Shown: in pieces, positions 27,554 to 45,461 of the stretch
Layout: every line of letters starts with the position of its first letter
How positions within the stretch are numbered: the first letter of the stretch is position 1
From: an uncultured Planctomycetota bacterium
Lineage (GTDB): Bacteria; Planctomycetota; Planctomycetia; Isosphaerales; Isosphaeraceae
Length of the DNA stretch: 64,000 nt
Direction of reading: 5' to 3'
NCBI GenBank assembly: GCA_963845755.1
Contig: CAWJTV010000042.1
Location: 96,001-160,000 of the forward strand
Notes under the pieces: generated by a model
Told to the model about the DNA's origin: nothing
Database searches by the model: none
Seen by the model: the letters and a program-made list of their open reading frames with translations, nothing else
Translations under genes and position numbers: made by a program

Positions 27554-28021
27554 CGGACGTCTTCCAGAGCCGTTCGACGACGGGACCTCGCGATTGTCGT
27601 TCAAGGATCGATCCTTCAATGCCCAGGATTCTCGGTAGTCGGTGAGGAACTGCCATTCCGGATTGGTCACGCGCCTGGCCGACCGATAGGTATGATAATG
27701 CATGGCCATATCGAAAAGGTAGAGCAAGACGAACCTGGGCCGCTAGCCTGCGATGTCTCGGTGAGACCGCCGATCGGGATCCAGCCGCGTTTCGCTGTTC
27801 CTGTGTGCGCGACCGGGTCGCGATGGCACCTGAGCATTGGTGTTACCATACCGGCTCTTCGACCCAGGTTCCTCCAAATCCTCGCGGATCTGCGCAGAGA
27901 TTCGGGGCCAAAGAAAAAAAGGTTCTTCGCAGAATCGTGGAGACTCCTCGTGTCTTGCTTCAGCCGGAAATGGAGAAACGCCACGTCCGAGTTAAGGTAG
28001 AACTCGGAAGGAGTTTCTCCC

Positions 28022-28330
28022 ATGCGGAAGCGCCGAAGGAACTATACGCTTGTCGAGAAGGTCGCCATCTTGAGGCGTCATCTGATCGACCACATCCCCG
28101 TCTCGGACCTCTGCGATGAGCACCAGCTCTCGCCCACCGTGTTCTACCTCTGGCAGAAGCCGTTCTTCGAGAACGGCCCGGCGGCCTTCGAGCGGAAGAA
28201 CGCCACGCCTGACGGCCACCTCCAGCAGACCATCGCCGCGCTGCGCGACAAGCTCCAACGCAAGAACGAGGTCGTCGCGGAATTGATGGCGGAACATATC
28301 AAACTAAAAAAAGAGCTTGGGGAGCTCTGA
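28022..28330 (+). CDS. IS3 OrfA (HTH)
   Basis: EKVAILRRHL..VSDLCDEH..PTVFYLWQK; A7G slippery site at 28306-28313 with orfB in the -1 frame. Confidence 0.9.
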   Translation: MRKRRRNYTLVEKVAILRRHLIDHIPVSDLCDEHQLSPTVFYLWQKPFFENGPAAFERKNATPDGHLQQTIAALRDKLQRKNEVVAELMAEHIKLKKELGEL

Positions 28331-29100
28331 ACGGAGTCTGGGCTCCCCACGATACCCGCGACTCCATCATCGACTTCGTCCGGCACTGGTCCGATCGCAC
28401 CGAGATCCCCCTGCAACGCTTCATCGGCTGGCTCGGCATTGCCGCCAGCAAGTTCCACGACTGGAGGACGCGCTACGGATTGGCCAACGAGCACAACGCC
28501 CTGGTCCCTCGCGACTGGTGGCTCGAACCGTGGGAGAAGGCGGCCATCCTCGAGTTCCACCGGCTCCACCCTCTGGAGGGCTACAGGCGGCTCGCCTTCA
28601 TGATGCTCGATGCCGATGTGGTCGCGGCCAGCCCCTCGAGCGTCTACCGCGTCCTGCGTCAGGCCGGAGCGATCAAGCCGCGCGACCACAAGCCCTCGCT
28701 CAAGGGGAAAGGCTTTCAACAACCCCTGCGCGCCCACGAGCACTGGCACGTCGATGTCACCTCCATCAACGTCGCCGGCACGTTCTTCTACCTCTGTAGC
28801 CTCCTCGACGGCTACAGCCGGTTCCTCGTCCACTGGGAGATCCGCGATAGCATGACCGAGGCCGACGTCGAGACGATCATCCAGCGGGCCCGCGGCGCTT
28901 CCCCGACGAGCGGCCCCGCATCATCTCGGACAACGGACCTCAGTTCATCGCCAAGGATTTCAAGGAGTTCATCCGGATTTGCGGAATGACTCACGTGAGA
29001 ACATCACCATGCTATCCACAGAGCAACGGCAAGATGGAACGGTGGTACAAGACCCTCAAGGGGGAGTGCATCCGGGTCAAGACACTGTTATCTCTGGCCG
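28327..29100 (+). pseudogene. IS3 OrfB DDE integrase; frameshifted near 28895 and C-terminally truncated
   Basis: HWHVDVT, LLDGYSR, ISDNGPQF, YPQSNGKMERW; the usual YN..R.HS tail is absent. Confidence 0.85.
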
Positions 29101-29164
29101 ATCCAGTGTACACTCTACCTTATCTCCTGACCCTGGTTTCTCCATTTCACGCTGAACCATCACA

Positions 29165-32100
29165 ACCCCGCCGCGAACGAGCCCCGCGGAGGCATTCCAG
29201 CGCGACATTCCGGTCGTGTCGGGCTGCAGATCCTGACCGGCTCCCTTGCCGATTCCGGGGTCGATCCGGAGCGGGGGAAGAGAGGGCGCGCCGGGATCGG
29301 CCGGATCCTCGTCCGGATACGCCGGCGCATCCCAGTCGAGGCCCGCCCCGGCAAGGTGGCGGCGGATCGCCCGCAGGTCCCAGACGTGCACGGCCGGGCC
29401 GTCCCTGGTGCTCACCACCAGCCGCGATCCGTCGGGGCTGAACGTCGCCGCCCACGCCTCACACAGGTCGGGGCTCATCAGCCGCGCGAGAGTGCGGCCC
29501 GTCTCGGCCTCGACCAGGCGCAGAACCTTATCCGGGTGCGCGACCGCCAGTAGGCGACCGTCGGGAGCGGAGCAGAGGATCTTGCCGCTCCCCGCCGGGA
29601 CCACGATCCGGCTCGATCGGTCCTCGGCGATCCGCCCGGATCCCCCGGGAGACTCCAGATGGCCGGGCGGCCCGATCCGGAACTCGCGCCGGTCGGGAGC
29701 GAGCCGCAGCGGCCACCGCCTCACTCCGGTCGCGCCGGCGACCAGCAGGTCGCCCGACGCCTCGAACCGCGCGCCCTCGACCGGGCCGATCGCCAGGAAG
29801 GCGAGCTCCTTGCCGCCGGCCAGGTCCCAGAACGCCACGCCTCGGCTCGTCCCCAGGGCCAGCACCCGACCGTCGGGCCGGATGCTCACGGCCCCGTAAT
29901 CGATCGGCTCGCGGCTCGCGTGGACGAACGTCCGGTATTCGAGCCCCGGCTCAACCTCGTAGGTCGTCAGCCGGTCCCCGGTGGCGACGACCATCCGCCC
30001 GTCCTGGCCGAAGATCGGGGGGCGGCTGGCGCCGGTCAGGTTGAACCAGGGCCGGCCCAGCACCGGGTCCCAGAGCCAGGTCCGGCCTTCCCAGCCGCTG
30101 CTGCCCAGCAGCGTGCCGGCGGGGTGGAACGCCGAGCACAGCCCGCCGCCGATATGCCCGTCGAGGACCGCCCTCCGGGTGCCTGTCTCGGCGTCCCAGA
30201 CGTGGATCCTGCGGTTCGTGCAGGGGGTCGACAGCATCGAGCCGTCGGGGCTCCAGGCGACCCCCTCCGCGCTCGCCGGCAGCGGGATCGACCGGACGAG
30301 CCGGCCGGTCCCCGTCTCGAGGATTTTGCAGGCGGGTCGATCCGCGTTCGACAGGATCGCGATCCGGGTCGAGTCGAAGCGGAACGTCAGGGTCCCGGGG
30401 CTGGAGACGCGCCCGCTCGCGTCAGCCCGGCCGGTCGCCAGGTCGTAGACTATCAGGTCGCCGCCGGCCCGGGCCAGGGCGATGAGACGGCCGTCTGGGC
30501 TGAACCGGACCCGATCCCGGACCGGGCCCGGGTCGCTCGCGACGAGCACACGCCGATCGACATCCCAGACCGACAGGGCCTCGCCGGAGAACTGCGCGGC
30601 CGCCAGATATCGGCCGTCGTGGCTGAAGGCGAACACGCAGAAGCCGGCCCCGCCCGGGGTGTGGAATCGGGCAATCTCCTCGTCGTCGGCGACGCGACGC
30701 ACGGGAATCCTGCCGTCCCGGAACCCGAGCGCATAACGCGTCATGGTGGGGTCGAATGCGAACGCGACGGCCCCTGCCGGCCGGCGGACGACCCGACCGC
30801 CGGGCTCCGGCCTGACGTCGGGCAGGGCCAGGCAGGCGATCGCCTCATCGCGAATCGGATCGAGCCGCTTGCGGGCCAAGCCCAACTCGCGGGCGATCTC
30901 CGCCGCCCGCCACAAGGCCGCCAGGCCCTCGAACCGCTGGCCGGCCTGCCGGCTCAGTCGCATGACCCGCGCCCGATCCGTGAGCGACTCGACGAGCTCC
31001 TCGCGGCGGCCGTCGATCCGCGCGTCGCTGCTCGCGCGCCTCGGAGAGGCGCATCAGCGCCAGGTCGTAGGCGATCTGGTCGCGCTGCTCGCGGAACTTC
31101 CAGGCCATCGCGGTCAACGCGATGGCCAGGGCGACCGCGGACGCCGCGGCGGTGACCAGCGCCGCCACCAGGAGCGGATTGCGGCGGCACCATCGCCAAC
31201 CCTGTTCGATCGTCGTGCTCCGTCGCGCCAGGATCGGGCGGTCGTCGAGGAACCGCTCGAGGTCCTCGGCCATCGCCAGGGCCGTGGCGTAGCGGTCGCC
31301 CGGCTCCTTGGCGATCGCCTTCAGGACGATCGTCTCGAGGTCGCGGGGAATCCGCGCATCGATCCGCCGCGGGGCCTCGGGCGGATCGTGGAGCACTCGC
31401 TCGATCAGCTCGGCCTGCGCCGAGGGCCCGAACAGCGGGCGCAGGGTCAAGAGCTCGTAGAGCGTCGCCCCCAGGCTGTAGACGTCGCTGCGGCGGTCGG
31501 ACCAGCCGTCGAACCGCTCGGGCGCCATGTAGCGGATCGTGCCGACGATGTCGCCGGTGCGCGTCGGGCCGTCCGAGCCCTCGACCTTGGCCAGCCCGAA
31601 GTCAGTCACCCAGACCTTGCCCGCCACGTCGAGCAGGAGGTTGGACGGCTTGATATCGCGGTGCAGCACGCCCTGCTGATGGGCGTAGGCCAGGGCATCG
31701 GCGACCTGGAACCCGATCCGGGCCACCGAGCGAAAGTAGGGCCCCTTGGCGGCCAGGGTGAGGGTCGCGGTCTGGATGGCGACGGGCGCCGCGACCGCCC
31801 GCGCCGGCTCGCAGGGGTCGGGCCGGACGGGGCCGTACGGCGCGCCGGGGGTGGGACGAGCATCCGTCACGTTGCCCGCGACGGTCAGCGACAGGAGCGA
31901 ACCGGTCGCGAGCGAGTGGGCCAGCGTCATCGACTCGGAGGGGCCGGCCATGAGGGAGGACAGCCCCTCGTCCCCGGGCGAGCCGCCCGGGCGCTGGGCC
32001 AGGCCGCGGAGCTTCCTCAGGTCGTCGAGGATGGCGTCGAGGCCGTGCCCCTGGATGAACTGCATGGCGTAGTAGTGCACCCCCTGGTGCTCGCCCACGC

Positions 32101-32551
32101 CGTGGACCGGCACGATGTTGCCGTGGTGCAGCCGCGCCACCGAGCGCGCCTCGAGCTGGAACCGCTCGATGTGGGTCGCGCCGAGCCGCCCCGAGAGCGG
32201 GAGGATCTTGAGCGCGACGTGGCGGCCGAGCGACTCCTGCACGGCCTCGTAGACGACGCCCATCCCGCCCCGGGCGACCTCGCGGAGGATCCGGAAATCG
32301 CCGAGCCGGTCGGACGCGGGGCTCGCGGACGGCCCGTCGCCGACGGCCCGCCCGTCGCCGGCCGGCTTGACCTGCTCCATCACGACGAGTGCGGGGAAGA
32401 GGTTGACGATGGCCTCGGCGAGCTCGGGATGCCGGCGGGTGTACTCGGACAGCGGCGGCCGTTCGCCCCGGCGCTGCCGCTCGACGAACTCCTCCGCCAG
32501 CACCTCGAGAGGATTGCGGTCGGCGCCGGAGATGGGTTCGTCGCGGGACAT
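29165..32551 (-). CDS. Ser/Thr protein kinase with TM segment and WD40 repeats (kinase 1); frameshifts near 31000, 3' end abuts IS3
   Basis: ARGGMGVVYEA, VALK, HRDIKPSN, DFGLAK, GTIRYMAPE, then TM and WSPDG/FSPDG repeats in ORF 29077-30963. Confidence 0.9.
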
Positions 32552-32589
32552 CGCTCAGAACCTCCGCATTGCGGGGATGGCCGTCGCGG

Positions 32590-33237
32590 TCAGGGCTCCA
32601 GGAAACCCGGGATGCCCGCCAGGGCGTCCTTGAGCCGCTTCAGCGCCCGGATGTAGCGGTTGCTGGCCGCGGTCTTGCTGATCCCCAGGACCTCGGCCGT
32701 TTCGTTGTTGTTCAACTCTTCGAAGTGGCGGAGCGTCAGGATCTCGCGATCGATCGGCTCCATGGCGTTCAGCGCATCCTGCACGCGAAGTTGGAGCTCG
32801 GCCCGGAGGGCCGCCTGCGTGGGCGACGTGAGCCGGCCCAGGAGCATCGCGGCCAGCGAGACGGACGTCGCCCGGGGCAGCGCCCCATGCCGGAGCGAGA
32901 TCTCCAGCCCGGCGTCCCGGGCCTTGCTGCCGAGGTGCCGGCGGTGCAGGGTCACCAGCCGCTGCCCGGTGATCCAGCGCAGCCAGAGGAACACCGGCAT
33001 CGCCGGATGCGCGAGGTACTCTCGCGCCCGGCGGACGACGTCGATCGAGGCCTCCTGCAACACATCCGACGGATCGAGCCGCCCCCGCAGCCGCCGGTCG
33101 AGCCGGAGGTCCACCATCCGCCGGAGCCGATCGCGATGGCGCGCGAACAGTTCCAGGAGCGCGGACTCGTCCCCGCCCTCGATCCGCCGGCGCAGCTCGA
33201 TCGATTCATCGGATTCGGCGATCATGATCGACCCCAT
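32590..33237 (-). CDS. Planctomycete-type ECF sigma factor (ECF1)
   Basis: RLRGRLDPSDVLQEA, LWLR, TSPTQAA, DREILTLRHFEELNNNETA..RYIRALKRL; alternative start at 33225. Confidence 0.93.
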   Translation of the reverse strand: MGSIMIAESDESIELRRRIEGGDESALLELFARHRDRLRRMVDLRLDRRLRGRLDPSDVLQEASIDVVRRAREYLAHPAMPVFLWLRWITGQRLVTLHRRHLGSKARDAGLEISLRHGALPRATSVSLAAMLLGRLTSPTQAALRAELQLRVQDALNAMEPIDREILTLRHFEELNNNETAEVLGISKTAASNRYIRALKRLKDALAGIPGFLEP

Positions 33238-33239
33238 AC

Positions 33240-33274
33240 TCAAGATAACCGCGCGACGGTCCGGATTGTCCACA
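33240..33274 (-). promoter_or_regulatory. Putative ECF1 autoregulatory promoter
   Basis: TGTGGACAAtccggaccgtCGCGCGGTTaTCtTGA; 28/35 identical to 39690-39724. Confidence 0.7.
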
Positions 33275-33305
33275 CGATTCCGGCGAGATTTCCGAGCCGG
33301 CCCCG

Positions 33306-36300
33306 TCAATTGACCCGCTCGCCCGGCTTCTTGTGGACGAGCTTGTCCTTGGCCCCCTTGAAGAACCAGTCCCGGCCGTGGCCGCCGATCAGCTTGCTGG
33401 CGCTGCCGTCGTCGTGGACGGTCGTCTTCCAGACGAGCCGGAACGACTTTGAGGGGCCGACGCCCTTCATGATGTCCTTGATCCGGGTGTCGTAGGACTT
33501 CCCGGACTGCCACGCCGCGAGGATCGCCTCGAGGGCTTCGTCTTTGGCGAGGCTGCTGGGGTCGTCATCCGTCGTGCCGCCGATCAGGATCGCGTCGCCG
33601 GCGCCGGCGGTGATCTGGTCGGTGCCCTTGCCGCCGATCAGGATGCTGCGGCCGGATCCCCCCTGGATCATGTCATTCCCGGGGCCGCCGATCAGGACGT
33701 TGCCGTGGGCGTCGCCAACGAGGTTACTGCCGTCGGGGCCGCCGCGAACGTCCTCGACGCCTCGGACTCCGCCCTGCACGGCGGTCGCCGTGCCGGCGGC
33801 CAGGTCGACGGCGACCGGGGCGTCGTAGGCCAAATAGTCGAGCCAGTTCCCTCCCCCGGTGCCGTTGATGCTCCCGGTGATCATCGCGCCCGGCTCGAAG
33901 GCGAAGGCATCGTCGGTGCCGGCCCCGCCCTGGAGATCTTGAATACCCTGGAAATCGACCCGTCCCATCAGACTGCCGGTGTCAACGCCGGTGATCGACC
34001 AGCTCGCGGCGAGGATGCTGTTGATCGTGGTCGAATTGACGGCGGCCATGACGTTGCCGGTACCCTGCGCGACGACGTCCACGGCGGTCTGGCCGGTACC
34101 CTTCACGGTGTAACGGTCGGGCCCCGGGCTGCCTTCGAGGGTGACGGATCCCGGGCCGGTATACTTGACCGCGGGGGCCGAGGTGTTGAAGTGGACGGAC
34201 CCCGCGTCCAGGATGTAGTCGCGGCCTCCCGGCCCGTCCTGGTCGGACAGGATGACGGAGGTCGTGCTCGTGCCCTGGATCGACAGTTGCCCCTGGATCG
34301 TGTCGAGGTTCTGCTGGGCGTTGCTCACCAGAACCGTGTCAGCGGCGTCGCCGGCTTCGATGAGCACCGACGTGGCCGCATCTGTCTGCGGGACGTCGAT
34401 CTCGGCCGGTGCGAGGCCGCCGGCCGCGAGGAACAGGGTGCTCAGCGGGTCGTCGGAGTCGTCGAACTGGATGGTCGCCGCGCCCGTGCGCGTGATCTCG
34501 TCGGGCGAGACCACGTAGGTGTCGCTCGCCTTCGCGGTCGTATCGAGCACGGCGAACGTCTTGGTCCCCTTGCTCCACTGGAAGGTCAACGGCCCCTGGA
34601 TGTCGTCGAGCGGGAAGGCCCCGAGGTTGTCCGTGCCACCGCCGGGCAGGACCTCCACGGGGACCCCGGCCGGCGTGCCCTCGACGGCGATGACGTTGGT
34701 GTCGGAGTTTTCGCTGGCGTGGAACGACAGGCTGGAGATCGCGTTGAAGTCGATGACGATGTTCGGCGAGCCGATGCGCTCGAGCTGCGTCGCGGTCAGC
34801 TCGTATTGCTGGGCCTTGCCATCGCCGGAATCATCGATCGTCAGCGGATCCTGGCCGGTGCCGCCGTTGATGGTGAGTGGGCCGAGGATGTGATCGAGCG
34901 AGGGGGACAGATCGCTCACCGCCACGGTGTTGTTGCCGGCCCCGGCATCGATGGTCGTTGTCGTCCCGGAGGCGGTGCCGAAGACGTGGATCGTGTTGGC
35001 TTCCGGGGTCGCCACCTTCAAGACGAGCTGGCCGAGGCTGCTGTAATCGATCGTGGCCTGAGTATTCACCCGTTCGACGTCCGTCTGCGTGACCCGGTAG
35101 GTGTCGGCGCGTGGTGAGCCCTCGTCGTCGATGGTCAGCGTGGTCGTCGGACCGTTCGCGTCGATGACATCCAGGGTCGAGTCGAGGTCGTCGAGCGTGC
35201 TCGACGGGTCGGAGGTGGTACCGCTCGCGCCGCCGTCGAATCCCACGTAGACCTGGGCATCCTCGCCGTTGGTCTGCACGGTCGTGGGTGCGTTGGCGAG
35301 CACGCTCTGGACGTAGATCTGGTCGGGCTGGGACGGGTCGAAGGAATACGTGCCCTCGAGCTTCACGCCGCCGGAGAAATCCCCGCCGGTGGACTGGAAG
35401 GTTACGTCCATCGGGTATCGGTACGAGGAAGGCTGGCCGTAAAGCGTCACGATCTGCCCCACATAGCGGAGGAGGTAACCCTGCGGCGTCGGCAACCCCG
35501 GCTGGGAGTGGCCGGGCGAGAGGCTCGAGGTCAGAGTGAGGATGTCCCCCGTCGAGCTGGCGGCGTCGTCGAACATGATCGCGTTCGAGCCGGCGCCCGC
35601 GTCGATGAAGAGCGGCCCCTGGATATCGTCGAGGGCGCTGCCCGGTCCACCGACCTCGATCGCGTCGTTGCCGCCGGCGGTGGAGACCGTGGTGGCGTCC
35701 GGCTGAGTGTCGGTGACGGTCACCGAGTCGTCACCGGCGAAGGTGTTGACGGCGAGCGTGTCGCTCGACTTGGGCAATGCCGCGTCGACGTGATACGAGA
35801 ACTCCTGGCCGTCGATCGAGGTGTTGACCGAGGCGGTGGTCCACTGCTGCTTGTAGATCGGCTCGCCGTTGGAGCCATACTGGCCCGTGGCGACCTGCTG
35901 GACGCCGACATAGACGGTGTCGTCCCCGGAGCCGCCCTTGATCGTCACGTGGTCGCCGTTTGCATCGGGGGAGGTCGTGTACTCGTGGAGGTTGACGTTC
36001 ACCTGGCTGACGTCGGCGTCGCTGAGATCGTCGATGACGTAGCTCTCGCCGCCGGTGTTGGCCGAGTCGGCGGCGTCGACGCTGACGACCGGAACCTCCA
36101 GGGCGTCGATCTGGCCGATGGATTGCTGATTCTTGTCCTGGCCGGCGACCTCGTATCCGGGGATATCGGAGTGCAGCGAAGTGATCGTCCAGGTCTCGCC
36201 GTCCTGGGCGCCCAGGACATCGAGCTGGGAATTGCTCCCGGTCACCAGGATCCCGCGGACGGTGAGCGGCCCGGCTCCTTCCTGCCATTCGAAGTCCGTC

Positions 36301-39240
36301 TGGCCGTATCCCGCCAGCATGTAGTCGCCGCCGAGCCCCTTGTCGTCCTTCCCCGCGATCATCACATACTGGGAAGACAGGGACGGGTTGACGGAGTTGT
36401 TGTCGGACCCGGCAAGGGGATCGTCGCTGCCGTAGAGGTTGTCATTGCCGAGCCCTCCCCCTTTCATCGTGGCACCCGCGTTGCCGGCCTGGAGCAGATC
36501 GTCCTGCCCGCCGTCCTGGCCGGCGCCCAGCATCTCGGCGGGGTTGGCGATCAGCATGTTCCACGCGGCCTGCTTCTCGGCGTCGTAGCCCTTGGCGCTC
36601 AGGTTGCCGCCGATCAACGTGTTCTGGCCGAATCCCCCCTGGAGTGTGTTGAGCGTCTGGATGGGGGACTTGAGCTTCGCCGGATCGCCTTGCGAGGAAT
36701 TCCACGTGCCCCCAACCATGTAGGTATCGCCATTGCCGAGGTACTGGAAGTCGTTGCCGTGCGGGCCGCCGATGAAGTACTGCGCCGGCGGCGACGCCCT
36801 GGCCGACGGTCACCGTCTCGGCCATCTTCCCGGAGTCCTCGAGCGCGACGATGGTCGTGCCCGGCGTGTCCGCCCCGGGGATCTCCTCGACGGCCCCGAA
36901 GGCGCTCGACGAGGAGGGCCTTGTCGTTGATCCCCTTCTGGTCGGTCGGCAGCGAGATCTCGAAGTCCTCATCGGTGGCCCCGGTGCTGTTGACGTTCTG
37001 GCGTCGCGACGCGTAGTCGCCCATGTCGAGCACGAGGACCTGGTTGGTCCCGGGCAGTTGCTTCTCGATGTCCGCGACGGGCAGGCCGGGAATCGGCGGA
37101 TCCTTGGGATTGAGGTTGCCGAACAGCTCGCCGAGCTGCGGCGGTGCCGGAGGCTGGCACGACGGACACGTGAAATCGAACAGCGTGACGCTGCCCAGGG
37201 GATAGGTGTAATTGATGTCGAAGGGCGAGACCCCGACCTGGACGAATGCCGACAGACTGAGATTCGCCGAACCGCCGATGATGAACGGGCAGAATGGCCC
37301 GCCGCTCACGACGTCGTTGGTGAAATCATCGAGCTGGAGGACCGGGTCGGTCACGGCTTTGCCATTTTGATCGACGGTCTTGACCTGATGATCGTTGGGG
37401 GCCGAATTGCCGGTGTTGATCCCCGTGACGCCGAAGCTCAATCCGATCGAGCCCGTGGCGCCGGTCTGGGCCAGGCCCAGGTCCAGCTTCCCGGTCAAGC
37501 CGATGCTCCCCGTCAACTGGGCCGAGGCTTTCGAGATGAACAGGCCATCGATGGGCTGACCGGCCGCGTTGTGGAAACCGTAGGTATCGACGCCCAGGGT
37601 CAGCCCGGCGGTGATGCCGAAACTCGCCGTGAGCTGGAGGAACAGCGGGATGGGAGGGATGATCGGTCCGATCGCCGGCCCGAGCGCGATGTTCGCCAGC
37701 GTCTGGCTGATCGGAGTCAAGCTGTACTGAACCAGCGCCACGTTGTCGTTGGTCAGCAGCCCCTCGAACGCCAGCGCCGGATCCGCCAGCATCGGGAGGA
37801 TGACCGTCCCGTCGAGGTCACCGCCCAGTTGGGTGAGATAGGGCTGGATCTCGCTGTTGACGGCGCTCGAGTCCTGCGTCGCCTGCGCCTCGATCGAGGA
37901 GAGCAGGGTCGAGAACGTGAGATCCTGCGCGGATCCGCGGTCGATGGCAGCGTACTGCTGGCGAAAGTGACTTCCGCCCCACTCGGAAACGAGAAACTGC
38001 CCGCCCCGCTGACGAGGTCGTGGAGCGTATCCAGTAGAGTCAGGAAACCCTTTTCGTTCATCGGCAGGAAGTCCTGGAGCAACGCCCTGGGCGTCACGGT
38101 GATGCCCAGGTTCGAGAGGACGGGCAATGGCTGATAGAAGAAGTCCACGACGTCCTGCAACGGCTTGATCTGCTTGTCGAGCGCCTGGATGAGCGGGCTG
38201 TTGGCGGGGTCGAGCTCGCTCCCCACGGAGCTCAAGTTGACACCCGCATCGAACGCGACGGTCGGCACCTGGCCGTCGCCCGGACCGTCGAAGGGGCTCG
38301 TGCCGGCGACGACGCTGTTCAACGGCCACTGGACCCCGAGATCCAGCGTGAGCGCCGGCGCGTCGGCGACGTCGAGAGCGTAGTCGAGGTCGACGGTCGC
38401 GGCAGCGGAGCTGGCGAAGTTGATCTGGTCGATGTCGGACGCGCTGAAGTTGTAGATGTTGCCCGAGGCGGACGCATTGAATGTCACCGGGACATCGAGA
38501 GAGCTCGGGGCGTGGGCATCGTCCGTCACCTGGTCGTGTACGCCGTTGAGACTTCCGGCCGTGCCGGCCCATCCTCCGAGGTTGGCCTTGAGCTCGACCT
38601 GCAACAGGGGACTGCTCGGGCCGTTCTGCGTCGGGTCAACGAAGAGGCCGGTCTGATCGAGGCCGAATTTCAGGTCGAGCGTGAAGGTGAGCTGCACGCC
38701 CACGGCCTGGTTGGCGGTCACCGCCAGCGGCGCGAGGCCGGGCAGGCCGAGCTCCAGGGCGACCGTCTCGGTGAGCGGCGTGCTCGTCGCGGCCTGGACG
38801 CTGAACGTGGCCTGGTTCGAGGACGAGCCCGTATTGGCGACCTGGGGCTGGTACGACGCCAGCGCCGTCTCCAGATCCGAGACCACCGTATCCTCGGGCT
38901 TCTGGCCGGTGACGGGCGGGTCGCCCTGGAACGTGGAGGCGATCTGCTGGGCCAGGCTCGCGAAGACCTGCCCCACGGGATCCGACGCCTGGCCGAGCTG
39001 AGTGCCCACCAGGGGCAGCGAGTAGCCGACGGCATTCGGGTTCAGGAGGTGGTCGTTCGCACTCGCTTGCATCTGAATGAAGATGGCCTGGAGTCCCGGG
39101 CCGACGAGCGACCAGTTCAGGCTCAGGAGCGTGCGGTCCTCCAGCGGCTCCGCGATCGGACTGGCGGCGAAACCGCGGCGGACGCGGCGCCTCGGATCAT
39201 ATCGTCGAGGGAACCCATATCGCCAGGTGATCCGATTCAT
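33306..39240 (-). CDS. Giant secreted RTX/hemolysin-type calcium-binding protein (~2000 aa), split by several frameshifts
   Basis: N-terminal Arg-rich stretch + EPLEDRTLLS export motif; repeated LDDIQGPL units; C-terminal GGPGND/GGKGTD repeats and GRDWFF; pieces in ORFs 37753-39318, 36614-38572, 36442-36972 and 33306-36719. Confidence 0.85.
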
Positions 39241-39392
39241 TGGTCGGTCCTCGGTGGGGAGTCCAGGGAAGCAAGTCGGACGTTCCGGTCTTCCGCGTCG
39301 GGCGAAGGCGGCGGGCACCGCGAACGCGCGGAGCGGCGCTGGGCCGCTCCGATCGAGTCGGCGCGGACTTGGCTGTCGAATTCGCGCACCGA

Positions 39393-39641
39393 CTAACAGG
39401 GGTCGGGCGGCTCAACGTGGGCCACAATGCCCACACTCCCCGGCGGATCGGCTTGCCAGGGCGAGTGCTGTTGCTTGCCCGAGGCGCGGGTAATCTCCAC
39501 CGCGCCGGGGCCCTGCCCCGGCAGAATGGGCAGGACGAGCGAAGGGGCCAGCCGCGGCTCGATCGACTCGACGGCGAGGCGGGTTGACCACTGTCGGCGC
39601 GCCGACGGCCGGTGCCGACGTACCCGGTTTATCGAGTTCAT
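39393..39641 (-). CDS. 82-aa peptide with planctomycete export-type motif (ESIEPRLAPS), ending PPDPC
   Basis: RBS gagggag; Arg-rich N-terminus and motif parallel to the adjacent giant protein; promoter-like motif upstream. Confidence 0.7.
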   Translation of the reverse strand: MNSINRVRRHRPSARRQWSTRLAVESIEPRLAPSLVLPILPGQGPGAVEITRASGKQQHSPWQADPPGSVGIVAHVEPPDPC

Positions 39642-39689
39642 GACGACGTCTCCCTCGGAGGAACTCGGGGCGCCGCGACGTGCGGCCCA

Positions 39690-39724
39690 TCATGACAACC
39701 GCGCGGCGCGGCGGTTTGTCCACA
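39690..39724 (-). promoter_or_regulatory. Putative ECF1-dependent promoter of the peptide/RTX operon
   Basis: TGTGGACAAaccgccgcgcCGCGCGGTTgTCaTGA, same spacing as 33240-33274. Confidence 0.7.
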
Positions 39725-40394: not shown

Positions 40395-40767
40395 GAGTCT
40401 GTTCCCTAAGTCCCCTCCTGAGCCCCCGGATGGGGGCGGAAGCACGTAGCCAGGGGCGTGAGCCCCTGGACGCGGGAGTTCCTCCGAACCGGGAAGCCCC
40501 GGAGGGGCGACAGAAACCCTGTGGCCCTGAGGACGTCTGTCGCCCCTACCTTCTAGACATATGTCCGACCGCATCCTCGGCACGCAAAAAAGCCGGTCGG
40601 ACAGCATGTTTCAGAAGGCTGATCCGGACCATATGTTGTCCAGCGGCACGACATATGTCCGGATCTCCGGGGCTCGAACGACGGTTGAGGGGGTCGCGGT
40701 CGATCATCCAGGGGCTCACGCCCCTGGCTACGTCCGGTCGCCCCTCTGGGGCTTTTGGAACAGACTC
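40395..40767. mobile_element. MITE-like element enclosing a REP-like cluster
   Basis: TIRs GAGTCTGTTCC / GGAACAGACTC, TGA on both flanks, internal perfect 27-bp IR 40444-40470 / 40707-40733, plus AGCCCCGGAGGGGCGAC-type units. Confidence 0.78.
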
Positions 40768-41653: not shown

Positions 41654-43071
41654 ATGGCACAGCCAGGGGCAACTATCGGGCGGAAGCGTGTTCCACTCAT
41701 CGTCTGGGCCGTCGCGCTCGCCCTGGGTCTGAATGGATCGGCCTGGGCCGCGGCCTTCGGGCAGCCGAACGACGACGACGTTATTCCTAAAGGGGCCGAA
41801 TCGAAACCCTTTCGCAAGGTGCTCATTCTTTCAGGAGGCGAGCTTCGCTTTTCAGCGGGCCTCGCGATGATGGCCACGCTTTATCGGAGGGGATGGGTTC
41901 CCGATGTGACCATCTACACCTGCGGATTCTCCAAGATCCCGGCGCGTACTTAAACTCACTCACCCAACTCCAGCCCGGTCAACCCGATCCGGCAAAATGG
42001 TATGAGGCCGCTTTGTCGGACGAGTACTTCCGAATTATGCAAAGAGTCAAAGTCAATAAGGATTTCTTTTCGAGAGTCGTGGATAAAGACGGAAACACCG
42101 GTTCGAGCCTGCTTTACGGGCAAATGACTTCCCGGATCGCGGGAATGCAATTGAAGAAAGAGGTCAACAAGGCACGCGAGCTCCCCTTTCTTTCTTCCCT
42201 ACTAAGAACGAACCCAAACGCATTGAGGATGACTCCGGTAGCCACCTATCCCGCCCTTTATCGAGACAACAAAGACACCCTCCTTGATGTCCCTTTCGAT
42301 CTCAGTCCCCCCGGAATGAATATCCCCTTTTCAGCCAACAAGATGCGCGCAATTTTTCTGGCGACAAAGATCCTCTACCCGCGTGAGTTGCAAAATCAGC
42401 CTCGACCCGAGAATTCTCAGCCCCTCTATCAAGAGGTGGTTTTCACCGATCGGCACACGGCAGACGAAATCGCACGGGTGAAATACGAAAAGTCGGCGAT
42501 CGCAAAGATGTTCCCGAAGGCCCCGATCCATCCCGACGTAGAGGTCCGCAGTGGCTACCGAGTCTGGGATGTGGCCCGGGCTGCATTGGCAGATATGTAC
42601 CTTACGGCGCCCATGTGGCTAGAAGACCCCACGGGGGTTCATCCCAAAGAGCTCTTTTTCACGGGAGCGATGAACATTTCGCCCATCGAATTAGCGCTTT
42701 CCCTGGGCGACGAGGTGATGGCCATTCGAATGAAGGAGTTGCGAGCGTCAAATCCCGCCGAGAAAATCGAATCGTACGTTTATGAAAATACATTCGGCTT
42801 TACCAACGACGAGAGAAGACTGGAGATCAAGAACCGTTTCGGCGATAAGGTGATCTGGATCGATCTGGAAGGAATCCAGGAAATGGAGAAGAGAAACGGT
42901 TTTTCCCCACTGCGCGTCGGAGACGGGCCGAAAATGCATCTAGAGGATAACATCCCCAGTGATCCCGCGGAGTTTAAGAGGCGGAGCAAAGCCCAGTGGG
43001 AGTGGGGTGTGGAGCAGATCAGGCGGGTTGATCTTCGAAGGAAAGGCGGCCATAGCATCCCAGGAAAGTAA
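41654..43071 (+). CDS. Secreted divergent patatin-like protein; frameshift near 41941
   Basis: Signal peptide, KVLILSGGELRF (Gly-rich loop position), PDVTIYTCGFS (nucleophile elbow position); visibly AT-richer than the host genes. Confidence 0.6.
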
Positions 43072-44772: not shown

Positions 44773-44806
44773 TTCCGGTCCCGCTTTCCGACCGGCGCGC
44801 GGATAA
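44773..44806 (+). promoter_or_regulatory. Putative ECF2 autoregulatory promoter
   Basis: ttccggtcccgctttccgACCGGCGCGCGGATAA; 28/34 identical to 50231-50264. Confidence 0.7.
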
Positions 44807-44811
44807 AGGGT

Positions 44812-45461
44812 ATGGGGACTCTCATGGACAATACACCCGGTGATCCCACTGACCCGATCGAGAAGCTCCGCGGTGGCGACCGCCAGGCGCTGGGAATGCT
44901 CTTCGACCACTACCGCGAGCGGCTCCGGCGCATGGTGGAGCTGCGCCTCGACCCGCGGCTGCGAGCCCGATCGGACGCCTCGGATGTCGTCCAGGAGGCG
45001 TTCCTCGACGTCGCCGGCGACCTCGACGCCTACCTGACCGACCCGAAGCCCCCCCGCTGCTCTGGCTGCGTTTGCACGTCGGCTGGCGGCTGACCCGGTT
45101 GCATCGCCAGCACCTCGGTACGCGAATGCGGGATGCGGGGCAGGAGATCTCGCTCGACCAAGGCGTCCTGCCCCAGGCCAGCTCAGCCGCCCTGGCATCC
45201 ATGCTCCTAGCTCAGGTCACCTCGCCGACCCAGGCGGCCCAACGCGCCGAGCGGATGCTCCGCGTCCAGGAGGCGCTGAACAGCCTCGACCCCATTGACC
45301 GGGAGGTACTCGCGCTGAGACAGTTCGAGCATGTCAACCGTGACGAGGCGGCCCTGGTGCTCAGGATCAGTCAGGAGGCGGGTGCGAGGCGGTACTTCCG
45401 CGCCCTGAAGCGGCTCGAGGACGTACTGGCCACGACGCCCGGTGGCTCGGAGGGTTTCTGA
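44812..45461 (+). CDS. Planctomycete-type ECF sigma factor (ECF2); frameshift near 45055
   Basis: RLRARSDASDVVQEA, TSPTQAA, DREVLALRQFEH, RYFRALKRL; paralog of ECF1. Confidence 0.9.

What the first reader, a model, noticed from the sequence alone, without database searches (positions are those of the whole stretch)
29165..39724. Candidate peptide - receptor kinase - ECF sigma circuit controlling a giant secreted protein
Seen: four co-oriented genes, namely an 82-aa peptide, a ~2000 aa RTX-like protein, an ECF sigma and a TM Ser/Thr kinase with WD40 repeats. One 35-bp bipartite motif (TGTGGACAA..CGCGCGGTTrTCwTGA, 28/35 identical) lies before both the peptide gene and the ECF gene. Known: ECFs often autoregulate, planctomycetes carry many ECF-kinase pairs without anti-sigma factors, and kinase activation of an ECF is established for Vibrio EcfP/PknT. 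Inference: ECF1 transcribes itself, the kinase and the peptide/adhesin operon. The exported peptide could be the ligand of the WD40 sensor, which would make an autoinducing loop.
Basis: partly seen in the sequence, partly recalled or inferred. Interest (0 to 1): 0.85.

Follow-up and report, generated by a model that had tools for sequence, protein, structure and literature searches.

The report
Kinase-linked sigma switch with repeat peptide
In a family of planctomycete bacteria, an alternative sigma factor paired with a membrane kinase very probably switches on itself, a giant exported protein and a small proline- and cysteine-containing exported peptide of an apparently undescribed family; this gives a testable promoter for a poorly studied regulator class, while the idea that the peptide feeds back as the kinase's signal remains unlikely but open.

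Summary
Observation confirmed (minus strand): motif, 82-aa peptide, ~1,980-codon giant gene, motif, ECF sigma, TM Ser/Thr kinase-WD40. The giant and kinase genes carry four frameshifts here but are intact in the same module in G071. The motif reads as an ECF promoter (-35 TGGAC, 17 nt, -10 GGTT). A matrix trained on other genomes' ECF upstream regions ranks the two window sites first and second in 14.3 Mb. Its -34/-33 bases track the sigma-4 residue equivalent to RpoE Ser172 (27 of 27 versus 0 of 32; only 1-2 independent events). The peptide is a real, coding-constrained family without a Pfam or NCBIfam match: planctomycete LExRL export motif plus one or more PPDPC-like cores. All 8 genomic copies lie within 11 kb of a kinase-linked ECF; three beside another ECF type carry another promoter. 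So the ECF very likely drives itself, the kinase and nearby exported proteins. The ligand loop is not supported: close ECF-kinase orthologues lack the peptide, and peptides also sit beside kinases without WD40. The scan noted similar ECF-kinase-exoprotein circuits on other DNA (e1-4218060, e1-6940006). No transcript data.

The parts
39690..39724 (-). Promoter copy A: TGGAC (-35) N17 GGTT (-10), predicted +1 at about 39687, 46 nt before the peptide start
   Evidence: rank 2 in the genome (28.5 bits) with a matrix from 14 ECF upstream sites of other genomes; near-identical before peptide genes in G071, G087, G044 and a close variant in G062
39393..39641 (-). 82-aa peptide: Arg-rich LAVESIExRLAP export-type leader, Pro-rich spacer, C-terminal EPPDPC; atypical member of a family with one or more PPDPC-like cores
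   Evidence: third-position and synonymous changes dominate; no Pfam or NCBIfam family
33306..39240 (-). Giant exported protein gene (about 1,977 codons): N-terminal LEDRTLL export motif, unannotated middle, few Ca-binding nonapeptide repeats at the C-terminus; three frame changes in this assembly (near 37920, 36907, 36780)
   Evidence: intact 2,082-aa orthologue in G071 and an intact orthologue in G087
33240..33274 (-). Promoter copy B, directly before the ECF gene; predicted +1 falls on the ATG at 33237
   Evidence: rank 1 in the genome (34.9 bits); same element before many paralogous ECF genes
32590..33237 (-). ECF sigma factor (ECF1), ECF62-like; DPSD in region 2.2; recognition helix KTAASNRY
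29077..32551 (-). Ser/Thr kinase, one TM helix, WD40 propellers; one frame change near 31020; lacks the C-terminal TPR part of most relatives; the last few codons run into the IS
27994..29103 (+). Insertion sequence (IS3/IS481-like transposase pieces) just downstream of the kinase; ends approximate; not part of the module
44777..44811 (+). Internal control: variant promoter (GGTCCCGCT..CGCGCGGATAA) before a second, frameshifted ECF62-like gene (ECF2, start 44812) whose helix residue is Arg

Best explanation
A small local regulon. ECF1 recognises TGGAC-N17-GGTT and transcribes (i) its own gene and the kinase and (ii) the peptide and the giant exported protein. The membrane kinase senses an unknown envelope or outside cue through its WD40 propellers and switches ECF1 on, most likely by phosphorylating the Ser of DPSD in region 2.2. 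Positive autoregulation sharpens the response. The peptide is an output: a minimal substrate of the planctomycete LExRL export route that delivers a disordered Pro-rich chain with one or more Cys-bearing PPDPC cores to the envelope or matrix, where my best guess is a thiol role (disulfide cross-linking or metal binding) alongside the large surface proteins. Shown here: the motif, its conservation and placement, the peptide family and its linkage. Inferred: transcription from the motif, phosphorylation, export, the peptide's activity.
For: Matrix from 14 ECF upstream sites of other genomes (no G000, no G071 orthologue, no peptide promoters) ranks the window sites 1 and 2; 4 sites at 24 bits or more against 0 in the reversed genome. 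Spacing fits an ECF promoter: with the ATG at 33237 as +1, the blocks fall at -35..-31 and -13..-10 (sequence). ECF1 Asn194 aligns with the Ser of GTVRSRIF in AlgU-type structures, the RpoE Ser172 position that contacts and specifies -34 (PMC1540707, PMC7776599). In 59 of 122 ECF rows with a site, the masked -34/-33 bases were G/T in 27 of 27 Asn/Ser rows and 0 of 32 Lys/Arg/His rows. The peptide promoter matches ECF1's variant, not that of ECF2 5 kb away. Pattern search: 22 hits in 12 of 121 family genomes, control 2; 20 of 22 precede an ECF62-like gene (10), the peptide (5), a short ORF plus LExRL gene (3) or an LExRL gene (2). Gene order is shuffled while the motif stays with each target. 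Three peptides beside another ECF type share another bipartite motif. Ser/Thr at the third DxxD position in 109 of 122, the position phosphorylated in EcfP and EcfK. Leader matches the published LxLExLExRxxP cell-surface motif (PMC8567305).
Against: No transcript or start-site data. 63 of 122 ECF rows had no site above threshold. All Asn rows fall in one 56-row clade (quick tree, support 90), so the covariation is 1-2 independent events. The matrix included close orthologues of ECF1, and 8 of the 22 pattern hits were loci seen before the pattern was written. About 5 other Asn-type paralogues in G000 could read the same promoter. DPSD keeps both Asp residues, unlike EcfP's STTA; a review cautions that non-ECF43 groups may work differently. 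LExRL genes as a class are not enriched near these ECFs in G000 (long ones 6 of 79 within 10 kb, random mean 4.2). The export route is unknown: no HlyD above the TIGR01843 cut-off in G000, 88% complete. The thiol role has no direct evidence. Four frameshifts leave open that this copy is decayed.
Confidence: 0.7

Rival explanations
1. One reading: the exported peptide (its PPDPC core) is the ligand of the kinase's outer domain, so the module is an autoinducing peptide circuit.
For: 8 of 8 genomic peptide loci lie within 11 kb of an ECF-kinase pair, against about 4-5% for random placement near ECF62-like genes in G000. One metagenome contig has peptide-motif-ECF with no giant gene between (L048). 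Leader plus repeated short cores is signal-precursor-like. A second leader-plus-repeats peptide sits beside the closest paralogue in G000.
Against: No full-length peptide found in G030 (91% complete) or G036 (85%), which have 83-84% identical ECFs, the same kinase type and the same promoter. Peptides in G013 and G043 lie beside a kinase-TPR and a kinase-ECF-sulfatase fusion, neither with a Pfam WD40 hit. The core is almost invariant, whereas specific signals usually vary with their receptor (general knowledge). At least 688 proteins share this WD40 region against 84 peptide-family sequences. Co-location is equally explained by being a target.
Confidence: 0.12
2. The peptide is a RiPP-type precursor (leader plus repeated cores) modified by enzymes encoded elsewhere.
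For: Conserved leader, variable spacer, repeated cores (up to 7 by a loose pattern); 44 of 84 members end exactly at PPxP[CILV].
Against: No recognisable RiPP-modifying enzyme or dedicated peptide transporter recurs among 91 neighbouring ORFs from the 8 peptide loci scanned against Pfam. The leader is the export motif shared with about 87 ORFs in G000, most of them large.
Confidence: 0.1
3. The motif is not an ECF1 promoter but a site for another DNA-binding protein, or a copied remnant carried along by module shuffling (TGTGGACAA is one mismatch from a DnaA box; recalled, not tested).
For: The spacer and leader before peptide genes are conserved too (ACCGCCGCGC in 4 genomes), which points to common descent. 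Covariation has few independent events.
Against: Bipartite layout with fixed ECF spacing, position at the ECF start in 59 of 122 rows, variation at the base contacted by the varying sigma-4 residue, and different spacers between the two window copies while both blocks are kept.
Confidence: 0.08

Closest known systems
ECF62 (Jogler 2012; Casas-Pastor 2021, PMC7826278 supplement)
   Same: Planctomycete ECF with a kinase at +1, one TM helix, WD40 repeats, no anti-sigma gene.
   Different: The supplement text says ECF62 target promoters are not conserved; here a conserved, subgroup-specific motif is found. ECF62s1-s3 kinases have an N-terminal zinc finger; this kinase's N-terminus has no Cys. No targets or peptide described.
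ECF217s1 (PMC7826278 supplement)
   Same: Kinase-linked planctomycete ECF with a Planc_extracel protein conserved in its neighbourhood.
   Different: Reported from Rhodopirellula and Pirellula, promoter not conserved, no shared promoter with the exported protein shown, no peptide.
EcfP/PknT (Vibrio) and EcfK/PknS (Xanthomonas), ECF43
   Same: ECF paired with a membrane Hanks kinase; Ser/Thr at the third position of the region 2.2 motif.
   Different: ECF43 lacks the acidic residues (STTA, QATE); this ECF keeps DxSD. Phosphorylation is shown for those and only inferred here. Outputs differ (polymyxin resistance, type VI secretion).
Planctomycete cell-surface signal motif (Pfam PF07595; RRLxxExLExRxLLA, LxLExLExRxxP)
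   Same: Peptide, giant protein and other targets begin with this kind of motif (sequence).
   Different: Described on large surface proteins; here it leads a 70-100 aa peptide with Cys-bearing repeats. No Pfam hit was returned for these N-termini.
Peptide autoinducer circuits (Rap-Phr, ComX-ComP, Agr; recalled)
   Same: Small exported peptide encoded beside a sensor and a positively autoregulated regulator.
   Different: Those use histidine kinases or cytoplasmic receptors with variable, receptor-matched peptides; no such pairing is evident here.

Membership tests
ECF62 | Planctomycete ECF with a protein kinase gene at +1 | tested here: met
   one peptide homologue and several kinase homologues are named Isosphaerales or Isosphaeraceae by their sources
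ECF62 | Kinase with one TM helix and WD40 repeats | tested here: met
ECF62 (s1-s3) | N-terminal zinc finger in the kinase | tested here: not met
   no Cys in the region before the kinase domain; feature
ECF62 | Sequence falls in the ECF62 clade / matches the group HMM | not testable with these tools
   group HMMs not available; TIGR02984 176.6 bits against cut-off 183.75. Filed as ECF62-like only
ECF group 4 promoter | Bipartite -35/-10 with 16-17 nt spacer at the ECF gene start | tested here: met
ECF group 4 promoter | Transcription starts there and depends on the ECF | not testable with these tools
   needs start-site mapping and reporters
Phosphorylation-activated ECF (ECF43 type) | Ser/Thr at third position of the region 2.2 motif | tested here: met
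   DPSD; 109 of 122 rows
Phosphorylation-activated ECF (ECF43 type) | Loss of the acidic residues of DAED | tested here: not met
   both Asp kept in the commonest motifs DASD and DPSD
RTX toxin / type I secreted RTX protein | RTX family match above cut-off; HlyD-type secretion gene | tested here: not met
   NF033943 25 of 1000 bits; no TIGR01843 match over cut-off in G000, 88% complete; only a few nonapeptide repeats
PF07595 export motif | N-terminal Arg-rich LxxExLExR motif | tested here: inconclusive
   matches the published consensus by eye but no Pfam hit
RiPP precursor | Conserved modifying enzyme in the neighbourhood | tested here: not met
   91 ORFs; long ORFs over 900 aa and ORFs failing a codon-bias filter were not scanned
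Peptide autoinducer circuit | Peptide co-occurs obligately with one receptor type | tested here: not met
Peptide autoinducer circuit | Peptide binds and activates the sensor | not testable with these tools
   needs binding and kinase assays

The most novel reading that the evidence does not exclude
Short LExRL-leader peptides with repeated cores (PPDPC here, G[ND]H[AI]G beside the closest paralogue) are exported signals sensed by eukaryote-like receptor Ser/Thr kinases that activate ECF sigma factors. This would be a peptide-receptor-kinase autoinducing circuit in a Gram-negative phylum, with dozens of paralogous channels insulated by a sigma-4/-34 code.
Probability: 0.12. Interest if true: 0.88.

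Novelty: new variant of a known kind. Interest (0 to 1): 0.56.

Why it matters
Kinase-linked ECFs are among the most expanded regulators of planctomycetes (about 32 close paralogues in this genome alone), yet the current classification lists no conserved promoter or target for this kind. A concrete promoter, a residue-to-base rule that may insulate paralogues, and named targets make the class testable with reporters in a standard host. The peptide family is the smallest kind of cargo with the unexplained planctomycete export motif that I met, so it is a handy probe for that route whether or not it signals.

Tried and rejected
Co-folding of the G071 peptide (residues 16-75) with its kinase's WD40 region (530-1110): no verdict, score 0.00, not used either way. 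Sequencing runs: no RNA holder listed; one DNA run with a 0.08 share, whose contigs cover short pieces only; it does not settle whether the frameshifts are assembly errors. A 5' hairpin after the peptide promoter: not better than shuffles (z from -1.65 to +0.60 in 6 leaders); dropped. Idea that the IS cut off a TPR domain: rejected, the G071 kinase ends at the same point without an IS hit there. General enrichment of LExRL genes near ECF62-like genes in G000: not found. Collection scans with the peptide alignment gave 2 loci each, and one of the metagenome pair (L049) was a chance match. AlphaFold model of the peptide: no fold, pTM 0.14; not searched further. ESM Atlas: only unnamed clusters for the peptide (0.81) and the giant's N-terminal part (0.91). 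Sigma-70 promoter scan: 0 sites; no minus-strand terminator. Weak hits of the peptide profile (E about 1e-5 to 1e-6) that I read were leader-only matches to other proteins and were not counted. The Fisher p-value for the covariation is not used because rows are related. Literature: searches for PPDPC-type strings (25 of 177 listed, none relevant by title), ECF62/ECFSTK/ECF217, LEPR-XLL/Planc_extracel, Planctomycetes+quorum sensing+peptide+ECF and Isosphaeraceae+sigma factor+regulon found no description of the peptide or this promoter.
Full report
Observation. The four genes lie on the minus strand in the order peptide (39641-39393), giant gene (39240-33306), ECF (33237-32590), kinase (32551-29077). 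The two motif copies are at 39724-39690 and 33274-33240 and agree at 28 of 35 positions; chance is about 4e-6 after allowing for search space. The giant gene changes frame three times and the kinase once. In G071, another genus of the same family, the whole module is present at 81-83% nucleotide identity with single ORFs of 2,082 and 1,162 aa; there the ECF gene is the one with a frameshift. In G000, 5 of 31 ECF62-like loci are split over frames. Assembly indels are the likelier cause (inference); decay is not excluded. The giant protein has only a few Ca-binding nonapeptide repeats and fails RTX family cut-offs, so 'exported surface protein' is safer than 'RTX'. An IS lies just downstream of the kinase and does not cut its WD40 region.

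The sigma factor and kinase. ECF1 scores 176.6 bits on TIGR02984 (cut-off 183.75). G000 has 50 tblastn loci like it, 32 at 100 bits or more, of which 30 have a kinase match directly downstream. The anatomy (kinase at +1, one TM helix, WD40) fits the description of ECF62, whose promoter is stated to be 'not conserved' (PMC7826278 supplement part 15). The zinc finger of ECF62s1-s3 kinases is absent and I could not run group HMMs, so I call it ECF62-like. Region 2.2 reads DPSD; the third position is Ser or Thr in 109 of 122 rows. That is the position phosphorylated in EcfP and EcfK, but both Asp residues are kept, so activation by phosphorylation is an analogy, not a result. This kinase and its G071 orthologue lack the C-terminal TPR part and about two WD blades of the family consensus.

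The motif is an ECF promoter. De novo search in 31 paralogue upstream regions, with ECF1 left out, recovered a related bipartite motif. Taking the ATG at 33237 as +1 puts TGGAC at -35..-31 and GGTT at -13..-10 with 17 nt between (sequence). A matrix built from 14 ECF upstream sites in other genomes (no G000 site, no G071 orthologue, no peptide promoter) ranks the two window sites first and second in 14.3 Mb; sites at 24 bits or more number 4 against 0 in the reversed genome, at 14 bits 58 against 32. The training set did include close orthologues. From 164 candidate loci in 11 genomes, 122 passed the filters and 59 had a site at 12 bits or more (shuffle 99th percentile 10.4); with the -34/-33 bases masked, they were G/T-G/T in 27 of 27 rows with Asn or Ser at residue 194 and in 0 of 32 rows with Lys, Arg or His, 31 of which have C at -34. 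Residue 194 aligns with the Ser of GTVRSRIF in AlgU-type ECF structures; that this equals RpoE Ser172 is recalled from the shared motif. Ser172 contacts -34 and sets its preference (passages of PMC1540707 and PMC7776599). The weakness: all Asn rows fall in one 56-row clade (quick tree, SH-aLRT 90) with one small Lys/CC group inside a polytomy, so this is one or two events. An internal control helps: ECF2, 5 kb on the other side of the peptide, has Arg at this position and a CC-type site; the peptide's promoter matches ECF1. In 29 of 59 sites an ATG follows 6-8 nt after the -10 block, which suggests leaderless or very short-leader ECF messages; a second ATG with a purine-rich site is also available.

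The regulon. The pattern GTGGACAA-N9-11-GCGCRGTT has 22 hits in 12 of 121 family genomes (reversed control 2); 8 of these I had seen before writing the pattern. Downstream lie ECF62-like genes (10, one only a 5' fragment followed by a 1,599-aa LExRL gene), the peptide (5), a conserved 66-aa ORF followed by an LExRL gene (3), an LExRL gene directly (2) and two others. Gene order varies: in G087, G044, G062, G036 and G030 the ECF and kinase come first and the targets follow, each with its own motif; metagenome contig L048 has peptide-motif-ECF with no giant gene. The large targets differ (beta-helix, RTX-repeat, unannotated). The link is specific to this subclade: long LExRL genes in G000 are not enriched near ECF62-like genes (6 of 79 within 10 kb, random mean 4.2).

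The peptide. Profile searches gave 40 proteins and 58 cluster representatives; after merging and dropping two unrelated hits, 84 sequences, median 83 aa: 73 have the LxxExxExR leader, 55 contain PP[DNE]PC, 44 end exactly at PPxP[CILV]. In conserved blocks of 7 genes, differences fall 92, 77 and 185 at codon positions 1-3, with 148 synonymous and 127 non-synonymous codon pairs (pairs not independent). No Pfam or NCBIfam family matches. Full-length copies occur at 8 loci in 7 of 121 family genomes and were not found outside the family among 401 sampled genomes of the class, where only 14 candidates per genome were scored. All 8 are within 11 kb of an ECF-kinase pair. Five sit by ECF1 orthologues and carry this motif. 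Three (G013, G043, second G071 copy) sit by a different ECF type and share a different motif, TGTC-N13-AAAGGGNATGGWACC, found only at those three places in 121 genomes (pattern written from them). The leader matches the planctomycete cell-surface motif (PMC8567305 section 19); it has no hydrophobic core, and its export route is unknown.

Ligand or output? Linkage alone fits both. Against a dedicated WD40 ligand: G030 and G036 have the orthologous ECF, kinase type, promoter and LExRL targets but only leader-type matches to the peptide profile (91% and 85% complete); the G013 and G043 peptides lie by a kinase-TPR and a kinase-ECF-sulfatase fusion; the kinase region has at least 688 relatives. 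For it: peptide-motif-ECF adjacency (L048), the precursor-like layout, and a second leader-plus-repeats peptide beside the closest paralogue. A RiPP reading lacks a recurring enzyme among 91 neighbouring ORFs. I put regulated exported cargo at 0.70 (thiol function is my guess within it; cysteine-rich envelope proteins are known in this order, passages), the loop at 0.12, RiPP at 0.10 and a non-promoter motif at 0.08.

Known versus new. ECF-kinase pairs, WD40 sensors, neighbouring Planc_extracel proteins (ECF217s1) and kinase activation of ECF43 are published. I found no description of this promoter, the residue-base pattern in this group, or the PPDPC peptides in searches. What I read: PMC7826278 passages, supplement passages and part 15 (file cut, logos not visible); passages of PMC1540707, PMC7776599, PMC8999054, PMC13147305 and bioRxiv 10.64898/2026.03.19.712371; passages and section 19 of PMC8567305. 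Jogler 2012, Iyer 2020, Studholme 2004 and Wiegand 2020 I know second-hand or from memory; Wiegand 2020 was not held, and it, ECF Hub or Todor's datasets may already hold this motif. Earlier unchecked notes of this scan describe similar circuits on other DNA; none matched this peptide or locus by sequence. Verdict: real, well-supported local regulon; new variant of a known kind; interest 0.56.

Noticed in passing
G000:C34:685613-688650: Beside the closest ECF1 paralogue, two divergent GG-type motif hits (687328 minus, 687523 plus) and an operon with a short LExRL ORF, a Lys/Glu/His-rich repeat protein and a 91-aa LExRL peptide with five G[ND]H[AI]G repeats: a second leader-plus-repeats peptide.
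   Followed up: partly
L064, L055, L056 (G071, G043, G013): Second bipartite motif TGTC-N13-AAAGGGNATGGWACC before PPDPC peptides that sit by another kinase-linked ECF type; candidate promoter for that group.
   Followed up: partly
L095:8794-12594 (G043): Single 1,267-aa ORF with kinase, ECF sigma and sulfatase domains; true fusion or assembly artefact not checked.
   Followed up: no
L081, L085, L087: Conserved 66-aa ORF (starts MNRNR/VNRDR) between the motif and an LExRL gene in G044, G036 and G087; its leader resembles the peptide's.
   Followed up: no
window 44777-45460 and beyond: Second ECF62-like gene (frameshifted) with CC-type promoter, followed by a kinase.
   Followed up: partly
G000, many contigs: Sub-clades of these ECFs each have their own -35 variant (for example HKAAASNR with TGTTGAC/TGTTTAC, EEAGAKR with TGTCCCGAA, QEAGAKR with GGTCCCG), a possible insulation code among about 30 paralogues.
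   Followed up: partly
G000:C41:89135 and C33:452986: Strong GG-type sites (28.0 and 23.7 bits) near other ECF62-like loci with no obvious ORF found downstream.
   Followed up: no
L245 (G011): Small LExRL-type ORF containing FNPQPDPP, another Pro-rich core.
   Followed up: no
L241, L242, L243, L249 (G107-G109): Conserved family of about 125-aa proteins with a VESLExKAAP leader, tandem in G109, near an ECF gene in the loci checked.
   Followed up: no
window 40421-40469 and 40708-40753: Two Rfam Acido-Lenti-1 (RF01687) matches on opposite strands upstream of the module.
   Followed up: no
window about 27994-29103: IS with frameshifted transposase and short terminal repeats next to the kinase's 3' end.
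   Followed up: partly
window 41893-43071: 392-aa ORF with no Pfam or NCBIfam match and lower GC than its surroundings.
   Followed up: no
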